Shown piece after piece: positions 2,781 to 31,354 of a DNA stretch of 32,000 nt. The stretch is from Nostoc sp. PCC 7120 = FACHB-418 (lineage in GTDB: Bacteria > Cyanobacteriota > Cyanobacteriia > Cyanobacteriales > Nostocaceae). The notes below the pieces were generated by a model. It searched no databases. It saw only the letters and a list, made by a program, of their open reading frames with translations, and was not told the DNA's origin. The translations under genes were made by a program, and so were the position numbers. The first letter of the stretch is position 1; the number at the start of each line of letters is the position of its first letter. The DNA lies in assembly GCF_000009705.1 (NCBI RefSeq), contig NC_003276.1, positions 210,001 to 242,000 of the forward strand, written 5' to 3'.

Positions 2781-3002
2781 TTTTTAAGTTGCTACTACCT
2801 TTCTTAAACTACAGTCTTTTATCATAAAATTACAAAAAATTCAATACCCCCTTTTTACATATACTGAGAGCATTTACAAAATATTTATACTATCAAAATG
2901 ATTTGAATGCAGTTTTTGCAAATATAACCCCTGCGGTTACAGGATTTACTTTATATATACGTAGAAATAATTAGTGATAAATATTATAGCAGTACCACAG
3001 TT

Positions 3003-3018
3003 CTGTTTTTTTCAGTAC
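3003..3018 (+). promoter_or_regulatory. 16-bp motif CTGTTTTTTTCAGTAC, candidate operator upstream of the T4SS operon
   Basis: Identical 16-mer at 25333-25348. TTGACTT (-35-like) follows at 3040-3046. The motif lies 80 bp upstream of the ATG at 3098. CAGTACC half-sites recur at 2990-2996 and 3013-3019, with the related GAGTACC at 3021-3027. Confidence 0.4.
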
Positions 3019-3097
3019 CAGAGTACCTCGATTTTGAGGTTGACTTATTAAAGAATGTGCGTATTCCTCATTAAATCGTTCAGGAGAACGAAACCAG

Positions 3098-3703
3098 ATG
3101 CGTACTTCTTACGGATATTCAGATTTTACTCAAGCAGCAACCCTTTCATATTCACCTAAAAATGAGATAGGTAAAAAAGGCACACTTTCACTCATGGGTG
3201 TAACGGGTGTGCTGATGATTGCAGAGATGTCCGTCCACAATATATTGATGGGTGGATTTATGATTGGGGCAGCTATCGTCATTGCCTTGCCGAAACAGTC
3301 TCAAGCGTTATTCACTAATTTTGACAAACTACAAAGAAAGTATGGAGTTAATCTCTATGCTGTTTTGTTTGCATTGTTAGCAGTGGTTTGTGTACTAGAT
3401 TTTGCATCTGCTCCAGCTAATGCTCAGTTTTTTAATGGCGCTCAAACTTGGATGAAAACCGCTTTTAGCCGTGCAGGAGGTGGAGGTACTGGAAACCAAA
3501 TAGAAACAGTTATTAATTTATTTTTCAATGTATTAAGAGGGTTATTCCTTTTATATGTTGGTATTAGTTTAGTTCGCATCATTCAAGCAGCCCGAAATGA
3601 TGAAGATTGGCAGTCGCTAGCAAGAACTCCATTAATTATAGTTTTGGCTGTTTTTTGTGGCGATTTAATTACTACATTAATTGTAGGAACAACTACACCT
3701 TAG
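3098..3703 (+). CDS. Polytopic membrane protein; C-terminal half resembles a VirB2/TrbC-type pilin precursor
   Basis: AGGAG at 3081-3085 precedes the ATG. An internal signal-peptide-like stretch LYAVLFALLAVVCVLDFASAPANA-QF is followed by about 92 aa with two hydrophobic helices flanking a charged loop (AARNDEDWQSLAR). It is the first gene of the T4SS operon. Confidence 0.5.
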   Translation: MRTSYGYSDFTQAATLSYSPKNEIGKKGTLSLMGVTGVLMIAEMSVHNILMGGFMIGAAIVIALPKQSQALFTNFDKLQRKYGVNLYAVLFALLAVVCVLDFASAPANAQFFNGAQTWMKTAFSRAGGGGTGNQIETVINLFFNVLRGLFLLYVGISLVRIIQAARNDEDWQSLARTPLIIVLAVFCGDLITTLIVGTTTP

Positions 3704-3719
3704 TACAAGAAAAGGGGAG

Positions 3720-4190
3720 GATTTTTATGTATATTTTCTCCCCATCAGCCCGGATTAAGTCTCTATTTAATAACTTTTTTGAGTCAAGTCGCTGCTCTAC
3801 GTTCGCGGAAGCGTGTCGAAGACAGACGCTACGTGTTAAGCGTCGGCGCAGCCTCTCCGACAGGAGAAGCTATGCCGCAGGCTTTACGCTCCAATTCAAA
3901 ATTATTTCCATTCTTCCTAACAGAATTTTGCATTTTGCGTTCAAAAAAGGTCAACTCGCTTCGCTCCAATTCAAAATTAAAAATTCAAAATTCAAAATTA
4001 AAGACAATTACTGGGGGCTTGTACCCACCACTAATTGTAGCCTGCGGCAACCCGTTCGCGCAGCGTCTCCGACAGGAGAAGGGTAGACCACCAAATCGGA
4101 GATTTTGGTGGGGGCTTGTACCCAAAATTATTAAATTCAAAAAAATTCTTATTCTTCATTTTGAATTTTGCATTTTGCATTTTGAATTAA
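3720..4190. repeat. Nest of dispersed direct and inverted repeats (Nostoc-type intergenic repeat cluster)
   Basis: Direct repeats: GCGCAGC(C/G)TCTCCGACAGGAGAAG at 3846-3869 and 4058-4081; TGGGGGCTTGTACCCA at 4012-4027 and 4109-4124; CGCTCCAATTCAAAATTA at 3887-3904 and 3962-3979; GAATTTTGCATTTTGC at 3923-3938 and 4163-4178. Hairpin CCACCAAA/TTTGGTGG at 4088-4111. The AATTCAAAATT runs (3968-4002) are inverted relative to the ATTTTGAATTTTG runs (4158-4190). Confidence 0.8.
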
Positions 4191-4193
4191 AAA

Positions 4194-4502
4194 ATGGTCA
4201 AGATGTCACAACAACGCTCTTTTCGCACGGTTAACAGAATTTTAGGAGAAAGACCAAGATTAGGGCCATTTCCCGCCGACCAAATATTTCCTTGGACATT
4301 GATAGCAGTAGGAAATGTCTTCCTGTTCAATTATTTACTTAAAGCAAGTTGGTTAGCTACTGGATTGGCGATCGCATGGGGATGGGCCTCTTGGTGGACG
4401 ATATCTACAAATAAAGATTTTTTCGGCAAATTTGTTAGCACTCCACGAATTAGCCGGGGATATATGAGACACAAACCAATTCGCAATTCTGAAGAACCTT
4501 AA
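4194..4502 (+). CDS. Small two-TM protein, VirB3-like by size, topology and position
   Basis: 102 aa with two hydrophobic helices (FPWTLIAVGNVFLFNYLL and WLATGLAIAWGWASWWTI), located immediately upstream of the VirB4-like ATPase. Confidence 0.5.
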   Translation: MVKMSQQRSFRTVNRILGERPRLGPFPADQIFPWTLIAVGNVFLFNYLLKASWLATGLAIAWGWASWWTISTNKDFFGKFVSTPRISRGYMRHKPIRNSEEP

Positions 4503-16045: not shown

Positions 16046-19000
16046 ATGTTTGATGAAAGACATTTGCAACTAACTTCTGCTTACGCTTATAGTAGTAAGT
16101 ATTTTATCCGTACTGTCATTTATCCTTTAGCCAAATATATTGATAAATATCTTCAGCAAAAAGCTGAAGATTCTATCAATAAAAAGTTATATTGGGAGAC
16201 TGGTAAACAAACTTATGCTATGAGTCAAGATGGCAATGGTGGCTGGAAATGGGAAAAGTATGATCCAACAGCTAACAAGTTTGTATCTCCACCTATGGAC
16301 GAACAGGGACATACCGCTTCAACATTTGCGGAAGCTGTATCTCACGACCTAAATAAAACTGCTTCATCCTCCACTGTGATAGATAACAATACAACTGATT
16401 CTATTACTCAACCGATAAAAGCTCAAACTGAAGAAATCAATTCTCTTGCCAAATCTTCAGGTCTAAAAATTCAAACTGACAATCAAACCTTTGTTACCTA
16501 TCTCAAAACTAATGGCAAAATTGGCTTTTCACTAATTGATGAGCAAACTAACAAGATAGTTGCCGACCAAGAGTTTATTACCCAACTGCAAATAGATGTT
16601 AATAAATATTTATCCGAATGTTTTCAAACATTAGCAATTAATCCAGAAACCTTAAACGAAGATATTTATAATTCTTTAAAAGATTGTTTAACTAGCTTTT
16701 TATCACCCCAGACACCAACTATTGCCAAAAAAGACAATCAAATTGAAAATAGCGAGGTGAACCAATTAAAAAAAGACATTACTCAAGATATTCCCCAGTC
16801 CCCCGAACATATAGATCCACCGCATTGGCAAGAACTAGTAGTCGGTAGTGCGATCGCTCCTGGCATTGCCTCCATGAATTTTGAATCTTTGCACTTTAAT
16901 CAGGCAAGAGGAGTACATGAAGCGTGGGATTTATTGATGACCAGCGACAAAATACCACGTACAAATACGGGTAGAGTCTCTGGAGGAATATTAAAAGCAT
17001 ATTCCTATTTAGATAATACAGATGGCTGGTGGTGTAATGCTGGCATAGATCCCAGACATTTTCAAAATTTAACCCCTGGTGAAACTGCCAACACTAAAGA
17101 ATGGGGGTGTTATAAACCAGATAAGCCAAGACCGAAAACCGAGAAAAAAGATGGGTTAAGTCTAGTGGTTCCGGGTAAATTCACCAAATATGAACATCCA
17201 CTAGGCACTGAAAAAAGTATTTTTTTGTTAGATGTCCCAGACAAGATTGCCCAAAATATTTACTCAAAGGCTGGAGTAAACCCCACAGATAGCGAGCGCA
17301 CAAGTGGATTTTGGTATTGCGTATGGAAACATAATATTCCTGTCACAATTACTGAGGGTGCAAAGAAAGCGGCTAGTCTGTTAAGCCAAGGTCATGCTGC
17401 CATTGGGTTAGCGGGAATTAACGGCGGCTACTATAAAACTAAGAAACTGGAAAATCCCATTGACAATGAAATTAAACCCAATGTTACTGAATCCGATGCT
17501 GTAATTGAATTACTGGAAATTGAGTCCGACGAAGTTGAGGTGGTTGATGAAAATCAAGCAGACAACGCTCAACCTCAAGGTCATCCTACTCACTTTTTGC
17601 ATCCTGAGTTAGCAGTTTTTGCCACAAAGGGGCGAGACTTCAAAATCTGCTTTGACTTTGACACTAAACCTGAAACCAAAAGAAATGTTGATGCTGCCAC
17701 CTTACGTACTGGACAATTACTAGAGGCGACTGGTGGCAAGGTGAGTGTCATTTCTCTACCAGGGCCAGATAAAGGTGTAGATGATTTTATTGTCGAGAGA
17801 GGGCGTGAAGCTTTTGACCAATTGCTTGCCCAATCCTTACCCTTAGAACAATGGAATGATAAGTGCCATCTAGAATTACGCTCAACTATCAAGCTCAAAG
17901 ATGGCACAACCAAGACCGTAGGGGATAAAAATCAGACTGTGGCAATCTCACAGGATAATGTCGCCCTCCAAACACCAATTAACCAATCTCCGCAAGAAAA
18001 TTTAATTGCTCAAATACTTTCGGAGCCTGTTGATCTACCAGCACAACAAAATAAATCTCCTGATGAAAGTCCCAAAATACCTGCATCTGAATTAAATATT
18101 TCGCCATGTAATTTTCAAATTGAAACTTCTTCACCGTCTGCCGAATCTAGTCAATTACAACATCAATCTACCCAGAAAAATACTCATCCTTCATCACTAG
18201 CTCAATCAAAACAACAGCAATCTAACAACAATGCTGCCCCTCACTCTCAACAACAGCAATCTCCACCATCTAATACTACAAATATGCACTCCTCTTCAAC
18301 CAATTCCACAACCCAAAACCAACAAATTCCTCAGCAACAAGAAACTGATGATAAGCGAAGTTGGTTTCCTTGGAAGAGAAAACCAATTATGGAAACTCCT
18401 CTTCCAGAAATTCCTCATTGGGCTAAAACACAGGACGTTACTCTTTATAAACAAAACTTCCAACGACGAAAACTCCACCATCAAGAGAATCAAGCGATCG
18501 CAACTGTAGCTGTGGCGCTCGTCAAGAAATACGGTGTCAAAAACAACGAATCGGGCAAAGAGCTAACTTATGTTGCTGATGCTTTCGTTATTCAAAAAAA
18601 AGGGGAAGATTACACTATTTCCCGTCGCCACGATGGTAAGGAGTTGATGAGCTTCATGGCGGATCGTTGGGGTGGAGTGAACAGAGTCAATCTAGGTCAA
18701 GACTTTAATACCAAAAATTACCCCATTAATATCCTACCTATTGAAAGACAAGAATTTTTATTAGTTGCTGACCACCTCAAAGGGGGTAAAGAATTACCAT
18801 CACTTGATGATGACCCACGCAAGCTTGCTTCTGTCTTGAGTTCGGTTTCACCTAGCGGCACACACAATATTTTAGAAAATTTTAAGCAATCCCAACTGTT
18901 GCAAATCATGATGGGAACTATCCGCAATTTTGAGAAAGACGACTTAACTTTAGCTAATTACCGCATTCTTTTTCGGCAAGGCACAGGCGGAAAATCTACA

Positions 19001-19729
19001 CTACAGTTATTCAAAGCTGAACAAAATGGTCTGATTACAAGGGAAGCTGTTCGGTTTGAATTTGAGCGTACTCCAACTGGTATGACTCATCAAGTTAAAA
19101 AAATGGCCATCAATGAAGCTGACTTGGAAAAGTTAAGTTTGCTAGCACAGAAACTACATATTAATTACAAAGCTTTGTTTGGCGACCCCAATACTAGCCG
19201 TGACATTGATTTGCCTATTCACCCTGCCATTAAGAGTCAATTAGATAAATTAACTCCCCCTCAACCTCAAGATCATCCCTCTCCCACCTCTGCATCAGTT
19301 GATTCTTTAATATCAACCAAGCAAGAGAGCAGGGGGAGAGGAGAAGCAGGGGAAGAAATAAGAGCAGGGGGGGATTTTACTAACATTTCCTCCCCAGCCT
19401 CCCCTGCTTCCCCAGCCTCCCCTGATGCGGATCAGTCTTTGTCGGATTTGCTCTCCAAACTAGAAAAGACTGGTAAACTTACTATTGGCGAACAACGTCA
19501 GATTTACCATGAACTACTTATCAAAAGTCAGCTTCAACAAGAAAATAATGGTACAACTGATATTTCCCTTCCTCCCATCAACATAGTTCTTGACGATTTA
19601 ATTAAACAGCGTCAGCTTCTTATTAACGATACTTATTCTGCCAAAGTTGAAGTTGTTTCCCAACAATCTCCACAACAACACACTCCACAACAATCTGTAG
19701 CGACTAATTCACCAGAATTAGAATTTTAA
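16046..19729 (+). CDS. Large DUF3854/Toprim-domain protein (primase-like) with low-complexity linker and unknown C-terminal domains
   Basis: aa 258-600 are paralogous to the N-terminal domain of the 27692-31354 protein: ELVVGSAIAPGI / ELAVGSAIHPSL; TEGAKKAA / CEGEKKAA; FDFD / FDYE; LPGPDKGVDDF / LPGPEKGVDDF. No P-loop seen. Confidence 0.8.
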   Translation: MFDERHLQLTSAYAYSSKYFIRTVIYPLAKYIDKYLQQKAEDSINKKLYWETGKQTYAMSQDGNGGWKWEKYDPTANKFVSPPMDEQGHTASTFAEAVSHDLNKTASSSTVIDNNTTDSITQPIKAQTEEINSLAKSSGLKIQTDNQTFVTYLKTNGKIGFSLIDEQTNKIVADQEFITQLQIDVNKYLSECFQTLAINPETLNEDIYNSLKDCLTSFLSPQTPTIAKKDNQIENSEVNQLKKDITQDIPQSPEHIDPPHWQELVVGSAIAPGIASMNFESLHFNQARGVHEAWDLLMTSDKIPRTNTGRVSGGILKAYSYLDNTDGWWCNAGIDPRHFQNLTPGETANTKEWGCYKPDKPRPKTEKKDGLSLVVPGKFTKYEHPLGTEKSIFLLDVPDKIAQNIYSKAGVNPTDSERTSGFWYCVWKHNIPVTITEGAKKAASLLSQGHAAIGLAGINGGYYKTKKLENPIDNEIKPNVTESDAVIELLEIESDEVEVVDENQADNAQPQGHPTHFLHPELAVFATKGRDFKICFDFDTKPETKRNVDAATLRTGQLLEATGGKVSVISLPGPDKGVDDFIVERGREAFDQLLAQSLPLEQWNDKCHLELRSTIKLKDGTTKTVGDKNQTVAISQDNVALQTPINQSPQENLIAQILSEPVDLPAQQNKSPDESPKIPASELNISPCNFQIETSSPSAESSQLQHQSTQKNTHPSSLAQSKQQQSNNNAAPHSQQQQSPPSNTTNMHSSSTNSTTQNQQIPQQQETDDKRSWFPWKRKPIMETPLPEIPHWAKTQDVTLYKQNFQRRKLHHQENQAIATVAVALVKKYGVKNNESGKELTYVADAFVIQKKGEDYTISRRHDGKELMSFMADRWGGVNRVNLGQDFNTKNYPINILPIERQEFLLVADHLKGGKELPSLDDDPRKLASVLSSVSPSGTHNILENFKQSQLLQIMMGTIRNFEKDDLTLANYRILFRQGTGGKSTLQLFKAEQNGLITREAVRFEFERTPTGMTHQVKKMAINEADLEKLSLLAQKLHINYKALFGDPNTSRDIDLPIHPAIKSQLDKLTPPQPQDHPSPTSASVDSLISTKQESRGRGEAGEEIRAGGDFTNISSPASPASPASPDADQSLSDLLSKLEKTGKLTIGEQRQIYHELLIKSQLQQENNGTTDISLPPINIVLDDLIKQRQLLINDTYSAKVEVVSQQSPQQHTPQQSVATNSPELEF
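19329..19424 (+). mobile_element. Small palindromic dispersed-repeat (SDR/MITE-like) insertion, in-frame within the CDS
   Basis: Imperfect hairpin, for example GAAGCAGGGGA 19343-19353 paired with TCCCCTGCTTC 19400-19410. Homologous to 27926-28009 in the same orientation relative to the host gene. Encodes GEAGEEIRAGGDFTNISSPASPASPASP. Confidence 0.6.
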
Positions 19730-25647: not shown

Positions 25648-26310
25648 ATGAATAAAGTAGGTTTGTTCGCATCTCTTACTTTGATAGGTTTAGGATTAGG
25701 GGCTTGTCAGTCTGATGCGGATAAGGTTGCTCAAGTTGAAAATGAACTAAGACAAGCTTATGCTGCAACAACTAATGAGCAAAGCCCTAAAGATAAACAG
25801 GTACAGGAATATGTTGAGGGTACACCTGATTTGCACAGAGTCAGTTGGAAAGTCTGTGGTGATGGAAAACTTAGCGTCACAATGAATGAGGAGATCAATA
25901 AAGGCTGTAATGAAACTCGCAACGAACCAGCTAAGGGTTTTTTTCAACCTGCTTATGTCTGGGGGCCAGTTAAAGAAGTGAAATTTGTAAATAAGCCCGA
26001 TCTTTCACCAAGTCTTCAAATCACAGGATTGTTTGTCAAATCCAGAGGGTGTGTCAGCTTAGGTCAACCAGGAGCGGAAAATTTTTATAGAGTATCTGAG
26101 TTTACGTTAAAGAAAGCGAGTGCTAATCTACCAAAAGATGCAAAAACTGAGGTAATTCCGAAACAAGAAAAACAAGAAATACTAAGTGCGGTAATAGGGA
26201 ATGCTGAATCGGAGTTAACCTCTATCAGAAATTTTGGTGTATCATCCAATGGACTATTACCTACGGGGTCAACTTGTCCAACATTAGGCGAGTGGGAAAA
26301 AGGATTCTAG
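25648..26310 (+). CDS. Lipoprotein of unknown function
   Basis: Signal peptide with a lipobox: MNKVGLFASLTLIGLGLGA-C. GGAG lies 8 nt upstream of the ATG. Confidence 0.7.
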   Translation: MNKVGLFASLTLIGLGLGACQSDADKVAQVENELRQAYAATTNEQSPKDKQVQEYVEGTPDLHRVSWKVCGDGKLSVTMNEEINKGCNETRNEPAKGFFQPAYVWGPVKEVKFVNKPDLSPSLQITGLFVKSRGCVSLGQPGAENFYRVSEFTLKKASANLPKDAKTEVIPKQEKQEILSAVIGNAESELTSIRNFGVSSNGLLPTGSTCPTLGEWEKGF

Positions 26311-26330
26311 TTCCCTAAGCCTTAGATATA

Positions 26331-26954
26331 CTAGGGCTTACTTTTATAATCAAAACACCCATTTGCATAGTCAACTTCCGGCAATCTTCCCACCCTGTAT
26401 CCGATGATATGTCCGCGCTCAGTTTCAAACACTATGCGAAATTTCTTCTTTGCGGGTGTGTAAACTAAAGTATTATCTTTTGTGACAAGATTTTTAGCGT
26501 AGATTGCCTTGACCTCATCAATACTCTGTCCGACTTGAGCGCCATTGGCAGTATGCAAAGAATAGTTGCGGCTCACTTCAATAGTGGCGATGGCATCTTT
26601 GATGACCATGAACCAGACGCGCTCAAGTCCACTTCCAGTTTGTGGCTCAAGGTAATAACAGCCTTTGTTAATTAGACCACTACTGGTTATCGGTAATAGC
26701 TGAAGGCGAGATACTTCCTCCGCACGTTGGACAGTCATACCTATTTTGATTTCCCCGATACTGTCAAAATTAATTAATGATTTGCTAGTAACATTTTGCG
26801 TTGGGTGAATATATATAAAGTACAAAACAAAGATAATCCACGAAAAAAATACAGTAACAATTAATTTAGGGATATCTCTGATATAAGAAATGATGTATTG
26901 AAGTGGGTTGTTGAGAAATTCATCAAACTCATCAATCATCGACCACATATTCAT
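26331..26954 (-). CDS. Membrane-anchored protein, tandem paralog B
   Basis: N-terminal TM segment. Shares with 26963-27502: (F/S)G(K/E)IKIGMT, GC(F/Y)Y..P..G, RV.FMV.., GY/RYK.G..PEV.Y..GC. Confidence 0.6.
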   Translation of the reverse strand: MNMWSMIDEFDEFLNNPLQYIISYIRDIPKLIVTVFFSWIIFVLYFIYIHPTQNVTSKSLINFDSIGEIKIGMTVQRAEEVSRLQLLPITSSGLINKGCYYLEPQTGSGLERVWFMVIKDAIATIEVSRNYSLHTANGAQVGQSIDEVKAIYAKNLVTKDNTLVYTPAKKKFRIVFETERGHIIGYRVGRLPEVDYANGCFDYKSKP

Positions 26955-26962
26955 ACCTAGAT

Positions 26963-27502
26963 TTATGAATAATTAGCACAGCCAAAAGGATAATTAACTT
27001 CTGGTATTTTCCCGGCTTTATAGCGAGTAATATATTCATACTCACCACTTTCAAAAATCATGCGATAGTTTTTCGCTTTTGGGGGAGCGTAGATGAAGTA
27101 GCGTTGCTTGCTATTTTTATTCCCAATGAGTTGGAAGTTCTTGATTCCATAAGTAGCGAGATTGTATTGTGAATCTCCTACTTTGACCCCTTTAGCAGTT
27201 TTTACATTTGAGCCATTGATTTCAAAAGTCACAATTTTCCCGTCTACAACCATAAATTTGACACGTTGGAATTGAAAGCCAGATTTTGGTTGCACGTAGA
27301 AACACCCGTCTTGCTGATTGCGCTTACCGTTAAGTTGCATTATTCCTATGTGTGCAACTTTTTGAGCTTGAGCAAGTGTCATACCGATTTTAATCTTGCC
27401 GAAGCTGTTGTAATCTACAGTATCAGTCAAGATACCTGTTGGTACACTAAGGGCGAAAATCAAGATGACGATAAAAATATAACTGATAATCCACTTGAAC
27501 AT
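26963..27502 (-). CDS. Membrane-anchored protein, tandem paralog A
   Basis: See paralog B for the shared motifs. This copy is 179 aa with an N-terminal TM segment IISYIFIVILIFALSV. Confidence 0.6.
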   Translation of the reverse strand: MFKWIISYIFIVILIFALSVPTGILTDTVDYNSFGKIKIGMTLAQAQKVAHIGIMQLNGKRNQQDGCFYVQPKSGFQFQRVKFMVVDGKIVTFEINGSNVKTAKGVKVGDSQYNLATYGIKNFQLIGNKNSKQRYFIYAPPKAKNYRMIFESGEYEYITRYKAGKIPEVNYPFGCANYS

Positions 27503-27589
27503 CTCACAAGGTTTTGCTTTGTATCATTGTTGATTATCATTATTAAGCTGGTTGCTTAAATTTTGAATATTCCTCTAGACACACAGATG

Positions 27590-27624
27590 TGCGTTTCCTC
27601 TGGGGACTGAGAGAGGGAAACGCA
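27590..27624 (-). terminator. Hairpin downstream of the replication-protein gene
   Basis: TGCGTTTCCTC (27590-27600) pairs with GAGGGAAACGCA (27613-27624) with a 1-nt bulge. It lies between the rep stop (27692) and the next minus-strand gene. The U-tract is weak. Confidence 0.35.
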
Positions 27625-27691
27625 ATCGCCACAAAATAGGGATCTTCAAGTTGCGAACACAGTTATTGCCAGCCTCCAAATTTTTCGAGAA

Positions 27692-30600
27692 TTACGCTTG
27701 TCCAAACTCCATCGGCAAAACATCCTCACTTAACAGCGAGTAAAATTCCGACACAGACGTTTCGAGCGATCGCACCTCAGCCTCAGCGATCGCTTCCCAT
27801 TCCAGCACGACCAGCCAACGCAAGTCAGAACCCCAACGTTGGAGAATGCCTTTGATTGCTTCTAGTCCATGACAAATGCTAGAACGGAGCATTTCTACAC
27901 AGTGAAGTATGGTAGTTCGGTCGGAAAGAGAAGCAGGGGAGGAATGGTTAGTAAATTCTCCCCCAGCTTCACCTGCGGCATCTCTTCCCCTGCGGCATCT
28001 CTCCCCCGGCTCCCATTCCGTAGTTCCCCCCTCCTGATAAGGGGAGTTTCCTATACCATTTGTGGGGGGGGTGAATACCACAGCTTCACCGTAGTTAGTC
28101 TGGTACTGTGCTTGATTTTCGGCTCTTTTTGCTTGTCTATGGGCGATGACTTGTAATGCAAAGTCTAGTTCTTTCTTGGACAGTGAGAATAATTTCACCT
28201 GTTGACCCCGTGGCCCCTGCTTGCGATAAGTCAGCTTCAGTCCCAGTTGATCCAATAAAATCCCCAACAGCCAGATTGGTTGACAGTTGGGGGGAACAGT
28301 GAAACCTAAAATTGCTTTAATGTGAGCAGCGCAATCAACAGCGATCGCCGACATATTTAATAGATGTGTGTCGTCCGCCCGAACTTCATCACCGGCGACG
28401 AGTCGAGTCAGAATGTGGTGTAGTCCCAGGTTAAAACGTGCCAACCACCGAGCAGAATAATTGCCCCAATCCATACAGAATGGCAGTTTATCTCGTTCGG
28501 CTCTATCTTTATTAGTGACAAGATCAGGTGGTATAGGATACTGTTTACCGTTATCATCAATGGTTGACTCTGGTGGTGAAAGGATGGCTTCAAGTGCAGC
28601 GATCGCTCCTATCAATCGACCACCGTTATCTTGTTCAACCAACTCCGGTGTTACTTCCATCCCGTAAGAATCATGAATGCGGAATTTCTCACACTCATAG
28701 ATTTCTTCGGGTGAGAGGTAGTCTTTAGTTTGACGAGCGCGGTATTCACTTTTGGAAATGTTGTTGGCCTTGGCGACGGCATGATGATGAGCAGTATCGA
28801 GAGCGTCCGCCGCAGTTTTGAGTAATTCCCAAGTTGGGGCATCAAGCTCGTCACCCACTGGTACAATTTGATTGCCCATCTGCTTCAACAATTCGCGTAA
28901 GTCGGTGCGTAAGTTATTAATCGACTGATGACGAGCAGATTTGATTTTGCAGTAAGCCTCAAGCGCCCAGTCTTTTTCAGCCCCGCGCTTACCTGTTTCT
29001 CGGTCAATCCGCAGTAAGAAAGCCGTAATCTCGTTAGTTTGTAGCAGCCGTTCTTTAATCTTAGTCGGGTTAGTGTCGAGGTATCCAAATGGGGGTTTAG
29101 GGGCCACCCAAACGTGAAGCGGGACTTTTGGGCGATACCTCCAAAGCTGTTGAGCGCATTCGGTGGCTGTCTGTGAAACTCCGTGAAATACACCAAACAC
29201 TGCATCAAAGTGATACTGCGAGATGTCAACCCCAGTCCCCAGGCTGGGAGAAGTGAGGAGGATATCTATATTCTTGATGGCGTTGGTGATGTCTTTGATG
29301 AAGGCTACATTTTCCTCGCTGCCTGAATTATCAGAATGAATTGACCAAACTCGTAAATTGCTTCGGCTTTGAGGTGGTGGAGAATTAGATATTGGGTTAA
29401 TGTCAACCCCAGGACTCGCATCGGACTGTACCACAGTTTGTAAAGTCAATAGTGACTTTTCAAGTTTCTTAATAAATCGTTTAGAGTCAGAAACTACCAT
29501 CACTTTCTGCCCTGTCATTACTGCCGCAGATATTTTGGCCACCAGGGCTGAGGAATTATCGCCTTCGTACCAATAGATAGTGCGATCGCCGTTTTGCCAT
29601 TGGTTTTCCACAATATATGGTTGTTCACCAACAGGGCGCATGGCGCGAAAAAAGTCGATGGTAATATCATCTAAATGCGCGTCAGCAATGATGACTAAAG
29701 GGCAATTGTAGACAATATACTGTAGAACCTCTAAAATTTCTGCACGATGTTCTTTGCAAGTCTTACTTAGTAATAGGTGCGTGAGATACTGGCAAGCCTC
29801 ATCGATGAAGACGCATCCATAGGTTAGGGCTTCGGTATTTAATTTATAAAGGCTATCAATGGTAATGGACAGGGCAATGGCCTTAGCCATACCAACATGA
29901 CCCACTTCAGAATACATGAGAGTTTTCAAGCGCTGGGCTAAATTCTTGAGTAAATTGACCCGATGCCCATTGTTGAGAAATCGTTGCTCAGGGTAAATCT
30001 CGCGCCACCAAGCCATCAATTCAGTTTTGCCTGTTCCCATACCGCTTTTCAAACCAACTAATCCTGATTTTGGTAACAGTAATCTCCGGTTTTTACCCAC
30101 AGGAGCGTTAGTTTCGGTTTGGTTCTGTGTTGGGGATGGAGGTAATATTTTGGGTTTTGTATGGGGAGTTTGGGGGAAAAGTTCTAGTAATAGCTGCTGT
30201 AAACCATCCTCATCAGGAGTAATATTGTTTTGTTTAAGCTGGATAAGACTTTCAACTGGCGGCGGTTGTGCATTAGGTTCATCCTCAACTACAAGTGCTT
30301 GAGTTAAGTAGCGTTCATTCACAATCAAATCTGGTTTGTACTTCCTTAGCCCCCGATGCTTGACTAAAAATGATTGCTGGTAGTCATTGAGCGATAGTGC
30401 ATCCAGAGCGATCGCCGTTAGCAGTGCATTGGCATCTTCACCTCGCGCCACCACGAAATCATCCACACCTTTCTCTGGCCCTGGCAATTGAATTATCTCG
30501 CACACACATCCTGCCGCTTCAATCGCTTTGCCCGTGCGAACTGTTGCCTGATAAACTGACCAACGGGTTTTTAGCTTTGTCTCGTAGTCGAACAAAATTT

Positions 30601-31354
30601 GAAACTTCCGCCCCGGCTGCGCTAGTGGTAGCAAGTCTGGGTGCAGTCTCTCGTCAAAATCCCTACGTCCTACCCGTCCGTTCCAAATACCGGGGAGTGC
30701 GATCGCTACAAATCCTAAACTGAGCAAACAGGCTGCTTTCTTTTCACCTTCGCAAAGTATGACGGGAATTTGCGGATTAGCGATTACCCACTCCCAGAAT
30801 ATCAGTGCGTGGAGTTTATCTTGTAATCGCCGGGAGAGGGATGAGTGGTATTGCTTGATGTTGTACCTTCGTGCTACCAACCCCCAAATGTAATCCGGTA
30901 CATCAAAGTATGTTACTCGGTTGGCAACTTTCGGCGGCGATTCATATTTAACTGGCTTGCCTTTTTCCCAATCAATGCGGGGATTGGAGGGTTTGAATCG
31001 TCCCCACTCCATCGGGAGCCAGTTGCGCTGCGGGTCTAGCCCGGATATCCACATCCCCCCGGCTAGTAGGTGCAGATATGCTTTTAAGAATCCGTCTGTC
31101 ACTCGACCTGCGTTTTTACGCGGAATCTCAGGAGAGATGAACAGGTATTCGTAAATCGCCTCTCCCTCAATATGCTGGAAATTACGCTCAATCAACGATG
31201 GATGAATGGCGCTGCCCACCGCTAACTCATGATACTCGGCGGCGGTGAGATTGTTGGGGTATTCAATTTCTTTTGACAGCAATTGATCCCCAATACCCGA
31301 CTGTGGGTATTGGTTATTTTTCACGGTAGATTCCTCCGATAACTTGGTTTTCAA
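27692..31354 (-). CDS. Plasmid replication protein, DUF3854/Toprim primase-like domain + P-loop helicase (CyRepA-like)
   Basis: Toprim block at aa 40-315 (CEGEKKAA, FDYE, GVDDF). Walker A GMGTGKTE (nt 30020-30043), Walker B VFIDEAC, then IIADAHLDD. A likelier start is GTG at 31324, preceded by GGAGG (31333-31337) with 8-nt spacing. Confidence 0.82.
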   Translation of the reverse strand: MKTKLSEESTVKNNQYPQSGIGDQLLSKEIEYPNNLTAAEYHELAVGSAIHPSLIERNFQHIEGEAIYEYLFISPEIPRKNAGRVTDGFLKAYLHLLAGGMWISGLDPQRNWLPMEWGRFKPSNPRIDWEKGKPVKYESPPKVANRVTYFDVPDYIWGLVARRYNIKQYHSSLSRRLQDKLHALIFWEWVIANPQIPVILCEGEKKAACLLSLGFVAIALPGIWNGRVGRRDFDERLHPDLLPLAQPGRKFQILFDYETKLKTRWSVYQATVRTGKAIEAAGCVCEIIQLPGPEKGVDDFVVARGEDANALLTAIALDALSLNDYQQSFLVKHRGLRKYKPDLIVNERYLTQALVVEDEPNAQPPPVESLIQLKQNNITPDEDGLQQLLLELFPQTPHTKPKILPPSPTQNQTETNAPVGKNRRLLLPKSGLVGLKSGMGTGKTELMAWWREIYPEQRFLNNGHRVNLLKNLAQRLKTLMYSEVGHVGMAKAIALSITIDSLYKLNTEALTYGCVFIDEACQYLTHLLLSKTCKEHRAEILEVLQYIVYNCPLVIIADAHLDDITIDFFRAMRPVGEQPYIVENQWQNGDRTIYWYEGDNSSALVAKISAAVMTGQKVMVVSDSKRFIKKLEKSLLTLQTVVQSDASPGVDINPISNSPPPQSRSNLRVWSIHSDNSGSEENVAFIKDITNAIKNIDILLTSPSLGTGVDISQYHFDAVFGVFHGVSQTATECAQQLWRYRPKVPLHVWVAPKPPFGYLDTNPTKIKERLLQTNEITAFLLRIDRETGKRGAEKDWALEAYCKIKSARHQSINNLRTDLRELLKQMGNQIVPVGDELDAPTWELLKTAADALDTAHHHAVAKANNISKSEYRARQTKDYLSPEEIYECEKFRIHDSYGMEVTPELVEQDNGGRLIGAIAALEAILSPPESTIDDNGKQYPIPPDLVTNKDRAERDKLPFCMDWGNYSARWLARFNLGLHHILTRLVAGDEVRADDTHLLNMSAIAVDCAAHIKAILGFTVPPNCQPIWLLGILLDQLGLKLTYRKQGPRGQQVKLFSLSKKELDFALQVIAHRQAKRAENQAQYQTNYGEAVVFTPPTNGIGNSPYQEGGTTEWEPGERCRRGRDAAGEAGGEFTNHSSPASLSDRTTILHCVEMLRSSICHGLEAIKGILQRWGSDLRWLVVLEWEAIAEAEVRSLETSVSEFYSLLSEDVLPMEFGQA
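27926..28009 (-). mobile_element. Second copy of the small palindromic dispersed repeat, in-frame within the rep gene
   Basis: GAAGCAGGGGAGGAATGGTTAGTAAATTCTCCCCC (plus strand) matches the reverse complement of the 19329-19424 element (GAAGCAGGGGAGG..AGGAAATGTTAGTAAAATCCCCC). Encodes GRDAAGEAGGEFTNHSSPASLS. Confidence 0.6.

What the first reader, a model, noticed from the sequence alone, without database searches (positions are those of the whole stretch)
19329..19424. Same small palindromic repeat inserted in-frame, in the same orientation and reading frame, in both Toprim genes (copy 1)
A G/C-rich imperfect hairpin element of about 90 bp interrupts the C-terminal region of the 1227-aa gene. 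It has a clear homolog inside the rep gene at 27926-28009, with a shared core GAAGCAGGGGAGG...A(A)TG(G/T)TTAGTAAA(A/T)T(C)CCCCC. The host genes lie on opposite strands and the elements are reverse-complementary on the plus strand, so each has the same orientation relative to its host. Both are read in the same frame, giving AGGDFTNISSPAS and AGGEFTNHSSPAS. The flanking protein sequences are not alignable, which argues for independent insertions or a mobile mini-domain rather than inherited sequence. This resembles the small dispersed repeats/MITEs described in Nostoc genomes, which can sit inside ORFs.
Basis: seen in the sequence. Interest (0 to 1): 0.65.

Follow-up and report, generated by a model that had tools for sequence, protein, structure and literature searches.

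The report
In-frame hairpin repeat in Nostoc plasmid genes
Two plasmid genes in this window each carry a copy of a small hairpin-forming DNA repeat that has landed independently in several Nostoc-family plasmid genes and is translated as a harmless flexible linker, a cyanobacterial counterpart of the "protein-coding palindromes" known from Rickettsia.

Summary
Window 19327-19424 (+) and 27923-28007 (-) are copies of one hairpin repeat: blastn E 5e-9, and 0 core-pattern matches expected by chance. Both are read in the same frame (AGGDFTNISSPAS, AGGEFTNHSSPAS).

The hosts are a conjugative DUF3854 protein and the CyRepA1 replication protein. Apart from the DUF3854 domain, the element is the only thing they share.

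The element has a 15-nt asymmetric loop (AATTTACTAAC-N-ATT). It sits between a G-rich arm of AGCAGGGGG units and a complementary C-rich arm.

It is rare and was found only on Nostocaceae plasmid-type DNA. It occupies at least six genic sites in three protein families plus one intergenic site, and insert-free orthologues exist for the sites examined.

It is not a classical high-copy MITE: I found no target-site duplication and only one to a few copies per plasmid.

Copy 2 lies in a linker that AlphaFold models as unstructured, and that linker is an insertion hot spot: 38 of 120 CyRepA1 clusters carry some insert there.

The same arms flank 23S_rRNA_IVP genes, which suggests kinship with intervening-sequence-like cassettes.

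The likeliest reading is a neutral or selfish hairpin repeat tolerated as a Gly/Ala-Ser/Pro linker. Interest is moderate.

The parts
19327..19424 (+). Copy 1 of the hairpin repeat, inside the DUF3854 gene, translated as SRGRGEAGEEIRAGGDFTNISSPASPASPASP
   Evidence: An orthologous copy is present in Nostoc sp. MS1 pNSMS102. It is absent from five other orthologues.
19327..19373 (+). Copy 1, G-rich left arm (AGCAGGGGG-type units)
19374..19388 (+). Copy 1, asymmetric loop core ATTTTACTAACATTT
19389..19424 (+). Copy 1, C-rich right arm: 3.8 tandem copies of CCTCCCCAG, read as (SPA)n
27923..28007 (-). Copy 2 of the hairpin repeat, inside the CyRepA1 gene, translated as GERCRRGRDAAGEAGGEFTNHSSPASLS. 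In host sense the left arm is 28007-27958, the loop AATTTACTAACCATT is 27957-27943, and the short right arm is 27942-27923.
   Evidence: Orthologous copies are in N. parmelioides (L023) and A. azotica (L019). It lies in a stretch that AlphaFold gives pLDDT below 50 and no secondary structure.
16046..19729 (+). Host gene 1: 1227-aa DUF3854 (Toprim-like) protein of the conjugative-transfer region
27692..31354 (-). Host gene 2: 1220-aa plasmid replication protein of the CyRepA1 family (DUF3854 domain plus CyRepA1 domain)

Best explanation
The two segments belong to a small, low-copy family of hairpin repeats found so far only on plasmid-type DNA of Nostocaceae.

Structure. Each copy has a G-rich arm of AGCAGGGGG(A) units starting with (A)AGAGAGCAGGGG, a 15-nt asymmetric loop (AATTTACTAAC-N-ATT), and a complementary C-rich arm of TCCCCTGCY units ending in CCCCTGCTCTCTT.

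Shown.
- The unit has entered at least six non-homologous places in three plasmid protein families, plus one intergenic site.
- The three families are CyRepA1, the conjugative DUF3854 proteins, and a 600-aa P-loop protein.
- Insert-free orthologues exist for the sites examined.
- Every genic insert preserves the reading frame.
- The one site modelled (copy 2) falls in a stretch that AlphaFold gives low confidence and no secondary structure; the other sites lie in stretches whose length varies among orthologues.
- Arms gain and lose whole repeat units.
- One arm can be deleted.
- The centre can flip.

Inferred.
- The element does no job for its host genes.
- It is neutral or selfish DNA that survives where its translation is harmless.
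- Of the four stop-free frames, only the frame read as (A-G-G)n-EFTNxSS-(P-A-S)n, and its mirror on the other strand, gives a small-residue flexible linker. This would explain why independent copies share orientation and frame.

Mechanism of spread (inferred, about 40% likely). The element is copied in by template switching or recombination at G-run and C-run arms while the plasmid is single-stranded during replication or conjugative transfer. A dedicated cut-and-paste transposase seems less likely because there is no target-site duplication, the ends are ragged, and the element is confined to plasmids.
For: - The two window copies are significantly similar while their flanks are not.
- Further copies with the same loop:
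  - a second CyRepA1 gene of pNSMS102, where a clean 72-nt insertion sits between codons conserved in six other CyRepA1 genes;
  - an A. azotica DUF3854-type gene;
  - the P-loop protein at two different sites, present and absent reciprocally in 80%-identical orthologues;
  - an intergenic site upstream of dnaB on three plasmids or contigs.
- Rarity and host range. The pattern scan of 185,579 species genomes gave 12 hits. Six were Nostocaceae contigs of 66 kb or less with plasmid-type genes. The other six lay in unrelated bacterial MAGs without the element's arms, about the number (roughly 4) expected by chance. The JGI metagenome scan gave 3 unrelated hits.
- At the copy-2 site, 82 of 120 CyRepA1 clusters have a 7-aa linker (EFESPPT). 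Only 2 clusters carry this element, and 36 carry other inserts.
- The NIES-3756-type 'remnant' is the A. azotica-type copy minus its right arm.
- Six-frame reading of the consensus gives 4 open frames. All six independent genic sites use +2. The T. variabilis flip uses -1, the mirror Ala/Gly-Ser/Pro frame.
- Between orthologous copies the flanks are nearly identical, while the element differs by 9-nt unit indels and clustered substitutions.
- AlphaFold places copy 2 in an unstructured stretch (pLDDT below 50, residues 182-238 of the 315-aa fragment), directly before a confident helical C-terminal domain.
- There is no Rfam family and no terminator signature.
Against: - No mobility event has been caught in the act. 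Copies follow orthology (copy 2 versus N. parmelioides), so nothing shows recent movement.
- Six of six sites in a single orientation is marginally more than selection for a benign frame predicts. If both mirror frames were equally good, p would be about 0.03.
- Thr and Asn codons of the loop vary synonymously (ACT/ACG/ACA, AAC/AAT). Selection on the peptide would also produce this.
- Four of the six genic sites lie in DUF3854-domain genes, and the intergenic site is next to dnaB. That enrichment could point to a cis function in replication or to cis-acting mobilisation.
- Element boundaries are blurred by diverged flanks, so a very short target duplication cannot be excluded.
- Chromosomes were screened only with a strict pattern.
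Confidence: 0.65

Rival explanations
1. The hairpin is a functional cis-acting nucleic-acid element of the plasmid that happens to lie inside coding sequence. It could be a single-strand priming or initiation signal recognised by the Toprim/DUF3854 proteins, or an mRNA hairpin (for example an RNase III site or a G-quadruplex) that tunes expression of replication and transfer genes.
For: - Four of six genic sites are in DUF3854-domain genes, and the intergenic copies lie just upstream of a plasmid dnaB.
- In the window the two copies lie on opposite strands, as paired single-strand initiation sites do in some plasmids (general knowledge, not tested here).
- Copy 2 lies next to a DNA stretch (window 28023-28073) conserved at nucleotide level in all 12 CyRepA1 genes read.
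- The hairpin is strong in several copies, with z from -2.3 to -4.8.
Against: - 118 of 120 CyRepA1 clusters lack this element, and 82 have no insert at all at the site.
- Four plasmids keep only one arm, so they have no hairpin.
- Copy 2 itself and the L009 copy fold no better than shuffles as DNA.
- The centre is flipped in T. variabilis.
- The element also occurs in a P-loop protein of unknown role, at two different sites.
Confidence: 0.15
2. The segment is a functional peptide module: a short linear motif, (A/G)GGEFTNxSSPAS, shuffled between plasmid proteins by recombination and kept by selection on the protein.
For: - The frame is the same at six independent genic sites.
- E-F-T-N and S-S-P-A are conserved, with some synonymous codon differences.
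- The element peptide is 71% identical between the two window proteins, against 31% for their homologous domain.
Against: - The same DNA occurs intergenically with no long ORF (L011, L016, L021).
- The T. variabilis flip changes the peptide to GEMLVNSPPAS and is retained in a 94%-identical orthologue.
- One-armed remnants are read in a shifted frame (EQGSRGAGEDLP).
- The most variable codon is the hairpin apex.
- Arm length varies freely.
- A profile of the peptide retrieved nothing at E of 1 or less.
Confidence: 0.1
3. There is no mobility. Each hairpin grew in place from local G-rich coding repeats by slippage and fold-back (template-switch) synthesis, and the similarity between sites is convergent.
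For: - Arms are tandem 8-9-mers that change by whole units.
- G-rich heptamer-type repeats are generally abundant in Nostoc (PMC4692102).
- The CyRepA1 site carries many different inserts.
Against: - A shared, asymmetric, non-repetitive 15-nt loop (AATTTACTAAC-N-ATT) and shared arm termini at seven non-homologous sites cannot arise by local slippage.
- In the filled CyRepA1 site the native sequence (GAATKKGAGYCG) is still present beside the insert, not inside its loop.
Confidence: 0.05

Closest known systems
Rickettsia palindromic elements (RPE) and other repeats found fused in frame inside protein genes, such as the BRE of Bordetella and BOX/RUP of pneumococcus. Reviewed in PMC3184786, citing Ogata et al. 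2000.
   Same: It is a short repeat of about 100 bp with dyad symmetry. It is inserted inside ORFs without breaking the frame and is translated as an extra segment. Orthologues without it exist.
   Different: There is no sequence relationship. Here there are one to a few copies per plasmid, not tens per genome. The element was seen only on plasmid-type DNA. The arms are arrays of 8-9-nt tandem units that expand and contract. The encoded peptide is a low-complexity Gly/Ala-Ser/Pro linker.
Cyanobacterial MITEs: Nezha of Anabaena/Nostoc, the Anabaena MITEs that form ORF fusions, and the Microcystis MITEs (PMC3184786).
   Same: It occurs in Nostocales. It has terminal inverted repeats and a stable predicted hairpin. 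It shows filled and empty sites between relatives, and it can be part of an ORF.
   Different: Nezha is 130-170 bp, has flanking direct repeats, and shares its terminal repeats with an IS (ISNpu3). Here I found no direct repeats and no partner IS, and copy number is very low.
Small dispersed repeats (SDR) and tandem heptamer (STRR-type) repeats of Nostoc punctiforme and relatives (Elhai et al. 2008, cited in PMC3116915; not readable here. G-rich heptamers are described in PMC4692102).
   Same: It lies in Nostocales. It is built from short G-rich tandem units, with nesting of small palindromic pieces inside other repeats. P0008 has AT-rich units nested in the loop.
   Different: From memory, SDRs are 21-27 nt and number in the hundreds per genome. 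The G-rich repeats of PMC4692102 are GGGGA(C/T)T, mostly intergenic and not paired as hairpins. I could not compare sequences with the SDR consensus.
Intervening sequences (IVS) of 23S rRNA with a PF05635 '23S rRNA-intervening sequence protein' ORF in the loop (family name from Pfam; biology from general knowledge).
   Same: It is a long stem made by inverted flanks, with or without a PF05635 gene in the loop. The same AGCAGGGGG / CCCCTGC arms as in the window element flank four PF05635 genes on Nostocales plasmids. Analogous arms flank at least three of the four chromosomal ones read.
   Different: The element here sits in protein-coding genes and must be translated through. rRNA IVSs are cut out by RNase III. 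No similarity was found between the 15-nt loop and the ends of the PF05635 cassettes.

Membership tests
In-frame 'protein-coding palindromes' (RPE-like; a functional class) | Repeat with dyad symmetry present at several unrelated loci | tested here: met
   There are seven non-homologous sites with the same loop and arms. Hairpin z-scores range from -2.3 to -4.8 in five copies.
In-frame 'protein-coding palindromes' (RPE-like; a functional class) | Inserted inside ORFs with the reading frame preserved, and orthologues without the insert exist | tested here: met
In-frame 'protein-coding palindromes' (RPE-like; a functional class) | Sequence homology to the Rickettsia RPE families | not tested
   No RPE sequences were compared. 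The host phylum and base composition differ, so the resemblance is functional only.
Classical MITE | Terminal inverted repeats | tested here: met
   The ends (A)AGAGAGCAGGGG ... CCCCTGCTCTCTT recur in copies and related cassettes.
Classical MITE | Target-site duplication (flanking direct repeats) | tested here: not met
   No direct repeat appears at the junctions of seven sites by inspection. The flanks at several sites are diverged, so a 1-2-nt duplication cannot be excluded.
Classical MITE | Autonomous IS with the same terminal repeats | not tested
   No transposase was seen between such ends in the 245 kb of loci held. The only gene found between the arms is PF05635. No database-wide search was possible.
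Classical MITE | Many copies per genome | tested here: not met
   Six Nostocaceae hits in 185,579 species genomes, at most 2 per genome, and 1-3 per plasmid in PLSDB.
Nostoc SDR families (Elhai et al. 2008) | Match to one of the eight 21-27-nt SDR consensus sequences | not testable with these tools
   The paper is not held, and no other held paper gives the sequences.
REP/REPIN | Short extragenic palindromes in high copy, associated with a RAYT (Y1 transposase) gene | tested here: not met
   Copies are mostly intragenic and rare. No RAYT-like gene appears in the annotated neighbourhoods read.
IVS-like hairpin cassettes carrying PF05635 | Inverted arms enclosing a PF05635 gene | tested here: inconclusive
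   The window copies have no gene in the loop. Arms of the same sequence do enclose PF05635 genes elsewhere. I could not show that the small element derives from such cassettes.
IVS-like hairpin cassettes carrying PF05635 | Excision of the stem-loop from the transcript by RNase III | not testable with these tools
   This needs RNA end-mapping. Frame preservation in all 38 insert-bearing CyRepA1 clusters argues that the mRNA is read through.

The most novel reading that the evidence does not exclude
The window element may be the cargo-less form of a class of hairpin-bounded cassettes that is widespread in filamentous cyanobacteria. The full form would carry the PF05635 four-helix-bundle gene, the '23S rRNA intervening-sequence protein'.

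On this reading, the kind of element known as an rRNA intervening sequence also invades protein-coding genes, where it is kept in frame and translated. The very abundant, 80-100% identical PF05635 genes of cyanobacteria would be travelling inside such hairpins.
Probability: 0.3. Interest if true: 0.75.

Novelty: new variant of a known kind. Interest (0 to 1): 0.5.

Why it matters
- It gives a clear cyanobacterial example of repeat DNA contributing coding sequence to essential plasmid genes, including the replication initiator used to build cyanobacterial shuttle vectors (PMC9978351, PMC10079941).
- It marks a linker in CyRepA1 that tolerates 15-50 extra residues of many kinds. That is practically useful as an insertion or tagging site.
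- It warns annotators and phylogeneticists that the Gly/Ala-Ser/Pro stretches in these proteins are repeat-derived, not homologous.
- If the link to PF05635 cassettes holds, it would connect three poorly understood things: rRNA intervening sequences, the huge PF05635 family of cyanobacteria, and the G-rich tandem repeats of Nostoc.

Tried and rejected
- **Peptide-profile search.** I searched a profile of the element peptide against 5.8 billion proteins. A short low-complexity profile is useless there.
- **JGI metagenome scan.** The core pattern gave 3 hits, none resembling the element.
- **Rfam.** There were no gathering-level hits. Below threshold only generic miRNA-precursor hairpins appeared, so no known RNA family is involved.
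- **Terminator and promoter scans around both copies.** Nothing was found at the elements, so a terminator role is rejected.
- **Elhai et al. 2008 (the SDR paper).** It is not held under its DOI or PMC id. Literature searches gave no description of this element.
- **Target-site duplication or common target motif.** I looked at seven junction pairs and found none.
- **Deriving the 15-nt loop from the ends of the PF05635 cassettes.** Only 4-6-nt matches (GAATTT, CATT) turned up, which is not significant.
- **Ancestral-domain reading.** Rejected because orthologues lack the segment and the positions differ between paralogues.
- **In-situ growth reading.** Rejected because the loop is shared.
- **The look-up of encoding contigs.** Four look-ups found no record.
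Full report
**Context**

The window is a stretch of a conjugative Nostoc-type plasmid.
- Its closest public relative is Nostoc sp. MS1 pNSMS102, at about 86% identity. A contig of N. parmelioides FACHB-3921 is 95.5% identical over 25803-29253.
- The window encodes an integrase, type IV secretion and coupling proteins (TrbI-like, VirD4-like), a two-component pair and a ParA-like protein.
- Gene 16046-19729 (+) is a 1227-aa DUF3854 protein of the transfer region.
- Gene 27692-31354 (-) is a 1220-aa replication protein of the CyRepA1 family. CyRepA1 is the Rep protein defined experimentally for pSYSA of Synechocystis (PMC9978351).

**1. The observation**

- Copy 1 (19327-19424, +) and copy 2 (27923-28007, -) align on opposite strands, with blastn E 5e-9 inside the window.
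- A degenerate pattern for the core matches only these two places. No match appeared in 100 shuffles even with three mismatches allowed.
- Both copies are in the sense orientation of their host and in the same phase. They read ...RAGGDFTNISSPASPASPASP... and ...EAGGEFTNHSSPASLS....
- The two proteins are paralogous only in the DUF3854 region (31% identity). The sole other significant match is the 24-residue element peptide (71% identity, E 2e-4).
- Copy 1 is a strong hairpin: RNA -56 kcal/mol, z -4.4; DNA z -2.3.
- Copy 2 is lopsided, with a long left arm containing a 17-nt tandem duplication and a short right arm. It folds little better than shuffles.

**2. Anatomy of the family**

Thirteen copies were aligned. 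They share three parts:
- a G-rich arm of AGCAGGGGG(A) units, often beginning (A)AGAGAGCAGGGG;
- an asymmetric loop AATTTACTAAC-N-ATT inside an inner stem GGGGGAGAAT/ATTCCTCCCC;
- a C-rich arm of TCCCCTGCY units, ending CCCCTGCT(CTCTT).

The most variable positions are at the hairpin apex. The number of arm units differs between copies. Even orthologous copies differ by 9-nt unit indels while their flanks are almost identical.

**3. Distribution**

- BLAST against 72,556 plasmids found full or nearly full copies only in Nostoc and Trichormus plasmids.
- An exact scan of one genome for each of 185,579 species gave 12 hits. Six are real, from Anabaena azotica (2), N. parmelioides (2), Nostoc sp. 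TH1S01 and Nostoc sp. FACHB-152. All six lie on contigs of 66 kb or less that carry plasmid-type genes.
- The other six hits lie in unrelated bacterial MAGs and lack the element's arms. About four such hits were expected by chance.
- The JGI metagenome scan gave three unrelated hits.
- The family is therefore rare, with one to a few copies per plasmid. Within the limits of a strict pattern, it is absent from chromosome-sized contigs.

**4. Independent insertion**

The same loop and arms occur at seven non-homologous sites.

- **S1.** C-terminal linker of the conjugative DUF3854 protein.
  - Present in the window and in MS1.
  - Absent from the orthologues of N. punctiforme, ATCC 53789, C052, T. 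variabilis and UHCC 0302, where the region is a variable spacer inside a repeated module.
- **S2.** C-terminal linker of CyRepA1. Present in the window, N. parmelioides and A. azotica.
- **S3.** N-terminal region of a second CyRepA1 gene of pNSMS102. This is a clean 72-nt insertion between codons conserved in six other CyRepA1 genes.
- **S4.** The variable loop of an A. azotica DUF3854-type gene. The family assignment rests on inspecting the flanking ...FATKGRQINICFDHDT motif.
- **S5 and S6.** Two different places in a 600-aa P-loop protein.
  - The NIES-3756 and MS1 orthologues are 80% identical.
  - Each carries the element where the other does not.
- **S7.** An intergenic site upstream of a plasmid dnaB.

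**5. The copy-2 site is a hot spot**

- Among 120 CyRepA1 clusters, 82 have a short linker at this codon position, and 37 of those read EFESPPT.
- The other 38 carry 15-50 extra residues of at least six sequence types.
- The DNA of representatives was read:
  - The 'remnant' type of MS1, NIES-3756 and T. variabilis is the A. azotica-type copy minus its right arm, with compensating single-G losses.
  - NIES-2111 and CHAB 5844 carry a hairpin with a different loop.
  - The 73-aa type of C052 has other arms around a loop related to this one, and P0036 reads EEIFTNSF there.
- In the filled site, the native GAATKKGAGYCG sequence is still present beside the insert.
- AlphaFold, run with a 38-sequence alignment, models this stretch as unstructured: pLDDT below 50 for residues 182-238 of the last 315. 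The stretch sits directly before a confident helical C-terminal domain with pLDDT around 90.

**6. Frame and orientation**

The consensus element is open in four of six frames:
- +2 reads AGGAGGAGGEFTNHSSPASPASPA.
- +0 reads EQGE..NLLTIPPLLPL.
- -0 reads GRGG..MVSKFSPCSPC.
- -1 reads AGEAGE..EEWLVNSPPAPPA.

All six independent genic sites use +2. In T. variabilis the central 48 nt or so at site S5 is the reverse complement of the NIES-3756 copy (44 of 48 positions). This hairpin flip happened between proteins that are 94% identical, and the flipped copy uses -1.

Both frames in use give small flexible residues. The unused open frames give Leu/Pro-rich or Cys-rich stretches.

- If all four open frames were equally acceptable, six of six in one frame would have p of about 0.001.
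- If the two benign frames were equal, the orientation bias alone would have p of about 0.03.
- Related hairpins with other loops use other frames, for example T. variabilis CyRepA1 with GQGAGSMGENF...PLPPAPCASAS.

The frame is therefore not imposed by the insertion mechanism. I conclude (inference) that selection for a harmless translation explains most of the bias.

**7. What it most likely is**

I read it as a neutral or selfish hairpin repeat that survives in variable linkers and loops.
- It is not needed by CyRepA1: 118 of 120 clusters lack it.
- It decays by losing an arm.
- It changes faster than its flanks.
- I found no target duplication and no partner transposase.

Three observations steer me toward one mechanism: the ragged ends, the changes in whole arm units, and the plasmid-only distribution. 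These point to copy-in by template switching or recombination at G/C-run arms on single-stranded plasmid DNA. This mechanism is inferred, not shown.

The rival readings (cis-acting replication or RNA element, functional peptide, in-situ growth) are weighed in their own sections. The cis-element reading keeps some weight for two reasons:
- Four of six genic sites are in DUF3854 genes.
- Copy 2 sits next to a nucleotide-conserved stretch of the rep gene.

**8. An unexpected relative**

- BLAST of the consensus also hit pairs of arms 120-510 nt apart.
- In four plasmids the arms enclose a 128-136-aa gene of family PF05635 (23S rRNA-intervening sequence protein, annotated 'four helix bundle protein').
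- All four PF05635 genes in the 245 kb of loci then held lie between such arms.
- The family is very large in cyanobacteria: more than 7,500 proteins at E of 1e-30 or less, with the top 120 being 80-100% identical across several genera.
- Chromosomal members in Nostoc UHCC 0702, Chroococcidiopsis and a Nostoc MAG also lie between inverted arrays, but of other 8-9-mers (GATGAGGGG, GCAGAGGA, GCAGGGGAG). A fourth, from Coleofasciculus, showed a C-rich array only downstream within the sequence read.
- This is the architecture of an rRNA intervening sequence.
- I could not show that the 15-nt-loop element derives from such a cassette, so I report this only as the most novel reading not excluded.

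**9. Comparison with known elements**

- In function it is closest to the Rickettsia palindromic elements and other repeats fused in frame into genes (PMC3184786).
- It fails two defining features of a classical MITE (target duplication and high copy number). It also fails the defining features of REP/REPIN.
- Membership in the Nostoc SDR families could not be tested.
- I rate it a new variant of a known kind, of moderate interest.

Noticed in passing
L003 900-1480; L008 880-1345; L027 2495-2965; L028 2500-3015; chromosomal L040, L041, L044: PF05635 ('23S rRNA intervening sequence protein' / four-helix-bundle) genes lie in the loop of hairpins whose arms are inverted arrays of G-rich and C-rich 8-9-mers. 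On plasmids the arms match those of the window element. On chromosomes of other cyanobacteria the repeat unit differs. The family has more than 7,500 near-identical members.
   Followed up: partly
window 27923-28022 (CyRepA1 codons about 1113-1145) and the same site in P0001-P0120: The CyRepA1 C-terminal linker is an insertion hot spot. 38 of 120 clusters carry 15-50 aa inserts of at least six sequence types at one codon position, and 82 have a linker of 9 residues or fewer, usually the 7-aa EFESPPT.
   Followed up: yes
window 28023-28073: A stretch ACCCCCCCC-N5-ATGGTATAGGAAAYTCCCC...GGGGGG inside the rep gene is conserved at nucleotide level in all 12 CyRepA1 genes read, including distant ones (Halotia, N. 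punctiforme). It may be a cis-acting site such as part of the origin.
   Followed up: no
L010 about 2990-3050 versus L007 2525-2575: The central 48 nt or so of the hairpin is inverted between two orthologues that are 94% identical. This is a flip of the kind caused by recombination between inverted arms.
   Followed up: yes
window 3790-4200: This is a cluster of other small repeats.
- Two copies of CGTYSGCGCAGCSTCTCCGACAGGAGAAG (3841, 4053).
- GTTCGCGGAAGCGTGTCGAAGAC at 3801; a similar piece is inserted in frame in the PF05635 gene of L003.
- Inverted arrays of AATTCAAAATT-type units (3968-4001 and 4155-4188).
- GGGGGCTTGTACCCA twice.
Similar AT-rich palindromic units are nested in the loop of the A. 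azotica P0008 insert.
   Followed up: no
window 3714-3743: A minimal hairpin GGGGAGGATTTTTATGTATATTTTCTCCCC lies just after ORF 3098-3703. It resembles the inner stem of the element, but the match is not significant (E 0.2).
   Followed up: no
L002 (T. variabilis plasmid A CyRepA1), about 30 codons upstream of the hot spot: A 38-aa insert with G-rich and C-rich arms and a loop of about 60 nt starting GGGGGAGAATTT. It is read in a different frame (GQGAGSMGENF...PLPPAPCASAS).
   Followed up: partly
L001 449-2722 (Nostoc sp. MS1 pNSMS102): The orthologue of the window's DUF3854 gene is annotated as only 757 aa and lacks the N-terminal 470 residues or so, including part of the DUF3854 domain. It is probably truncated or degraded.
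   Followed up: no
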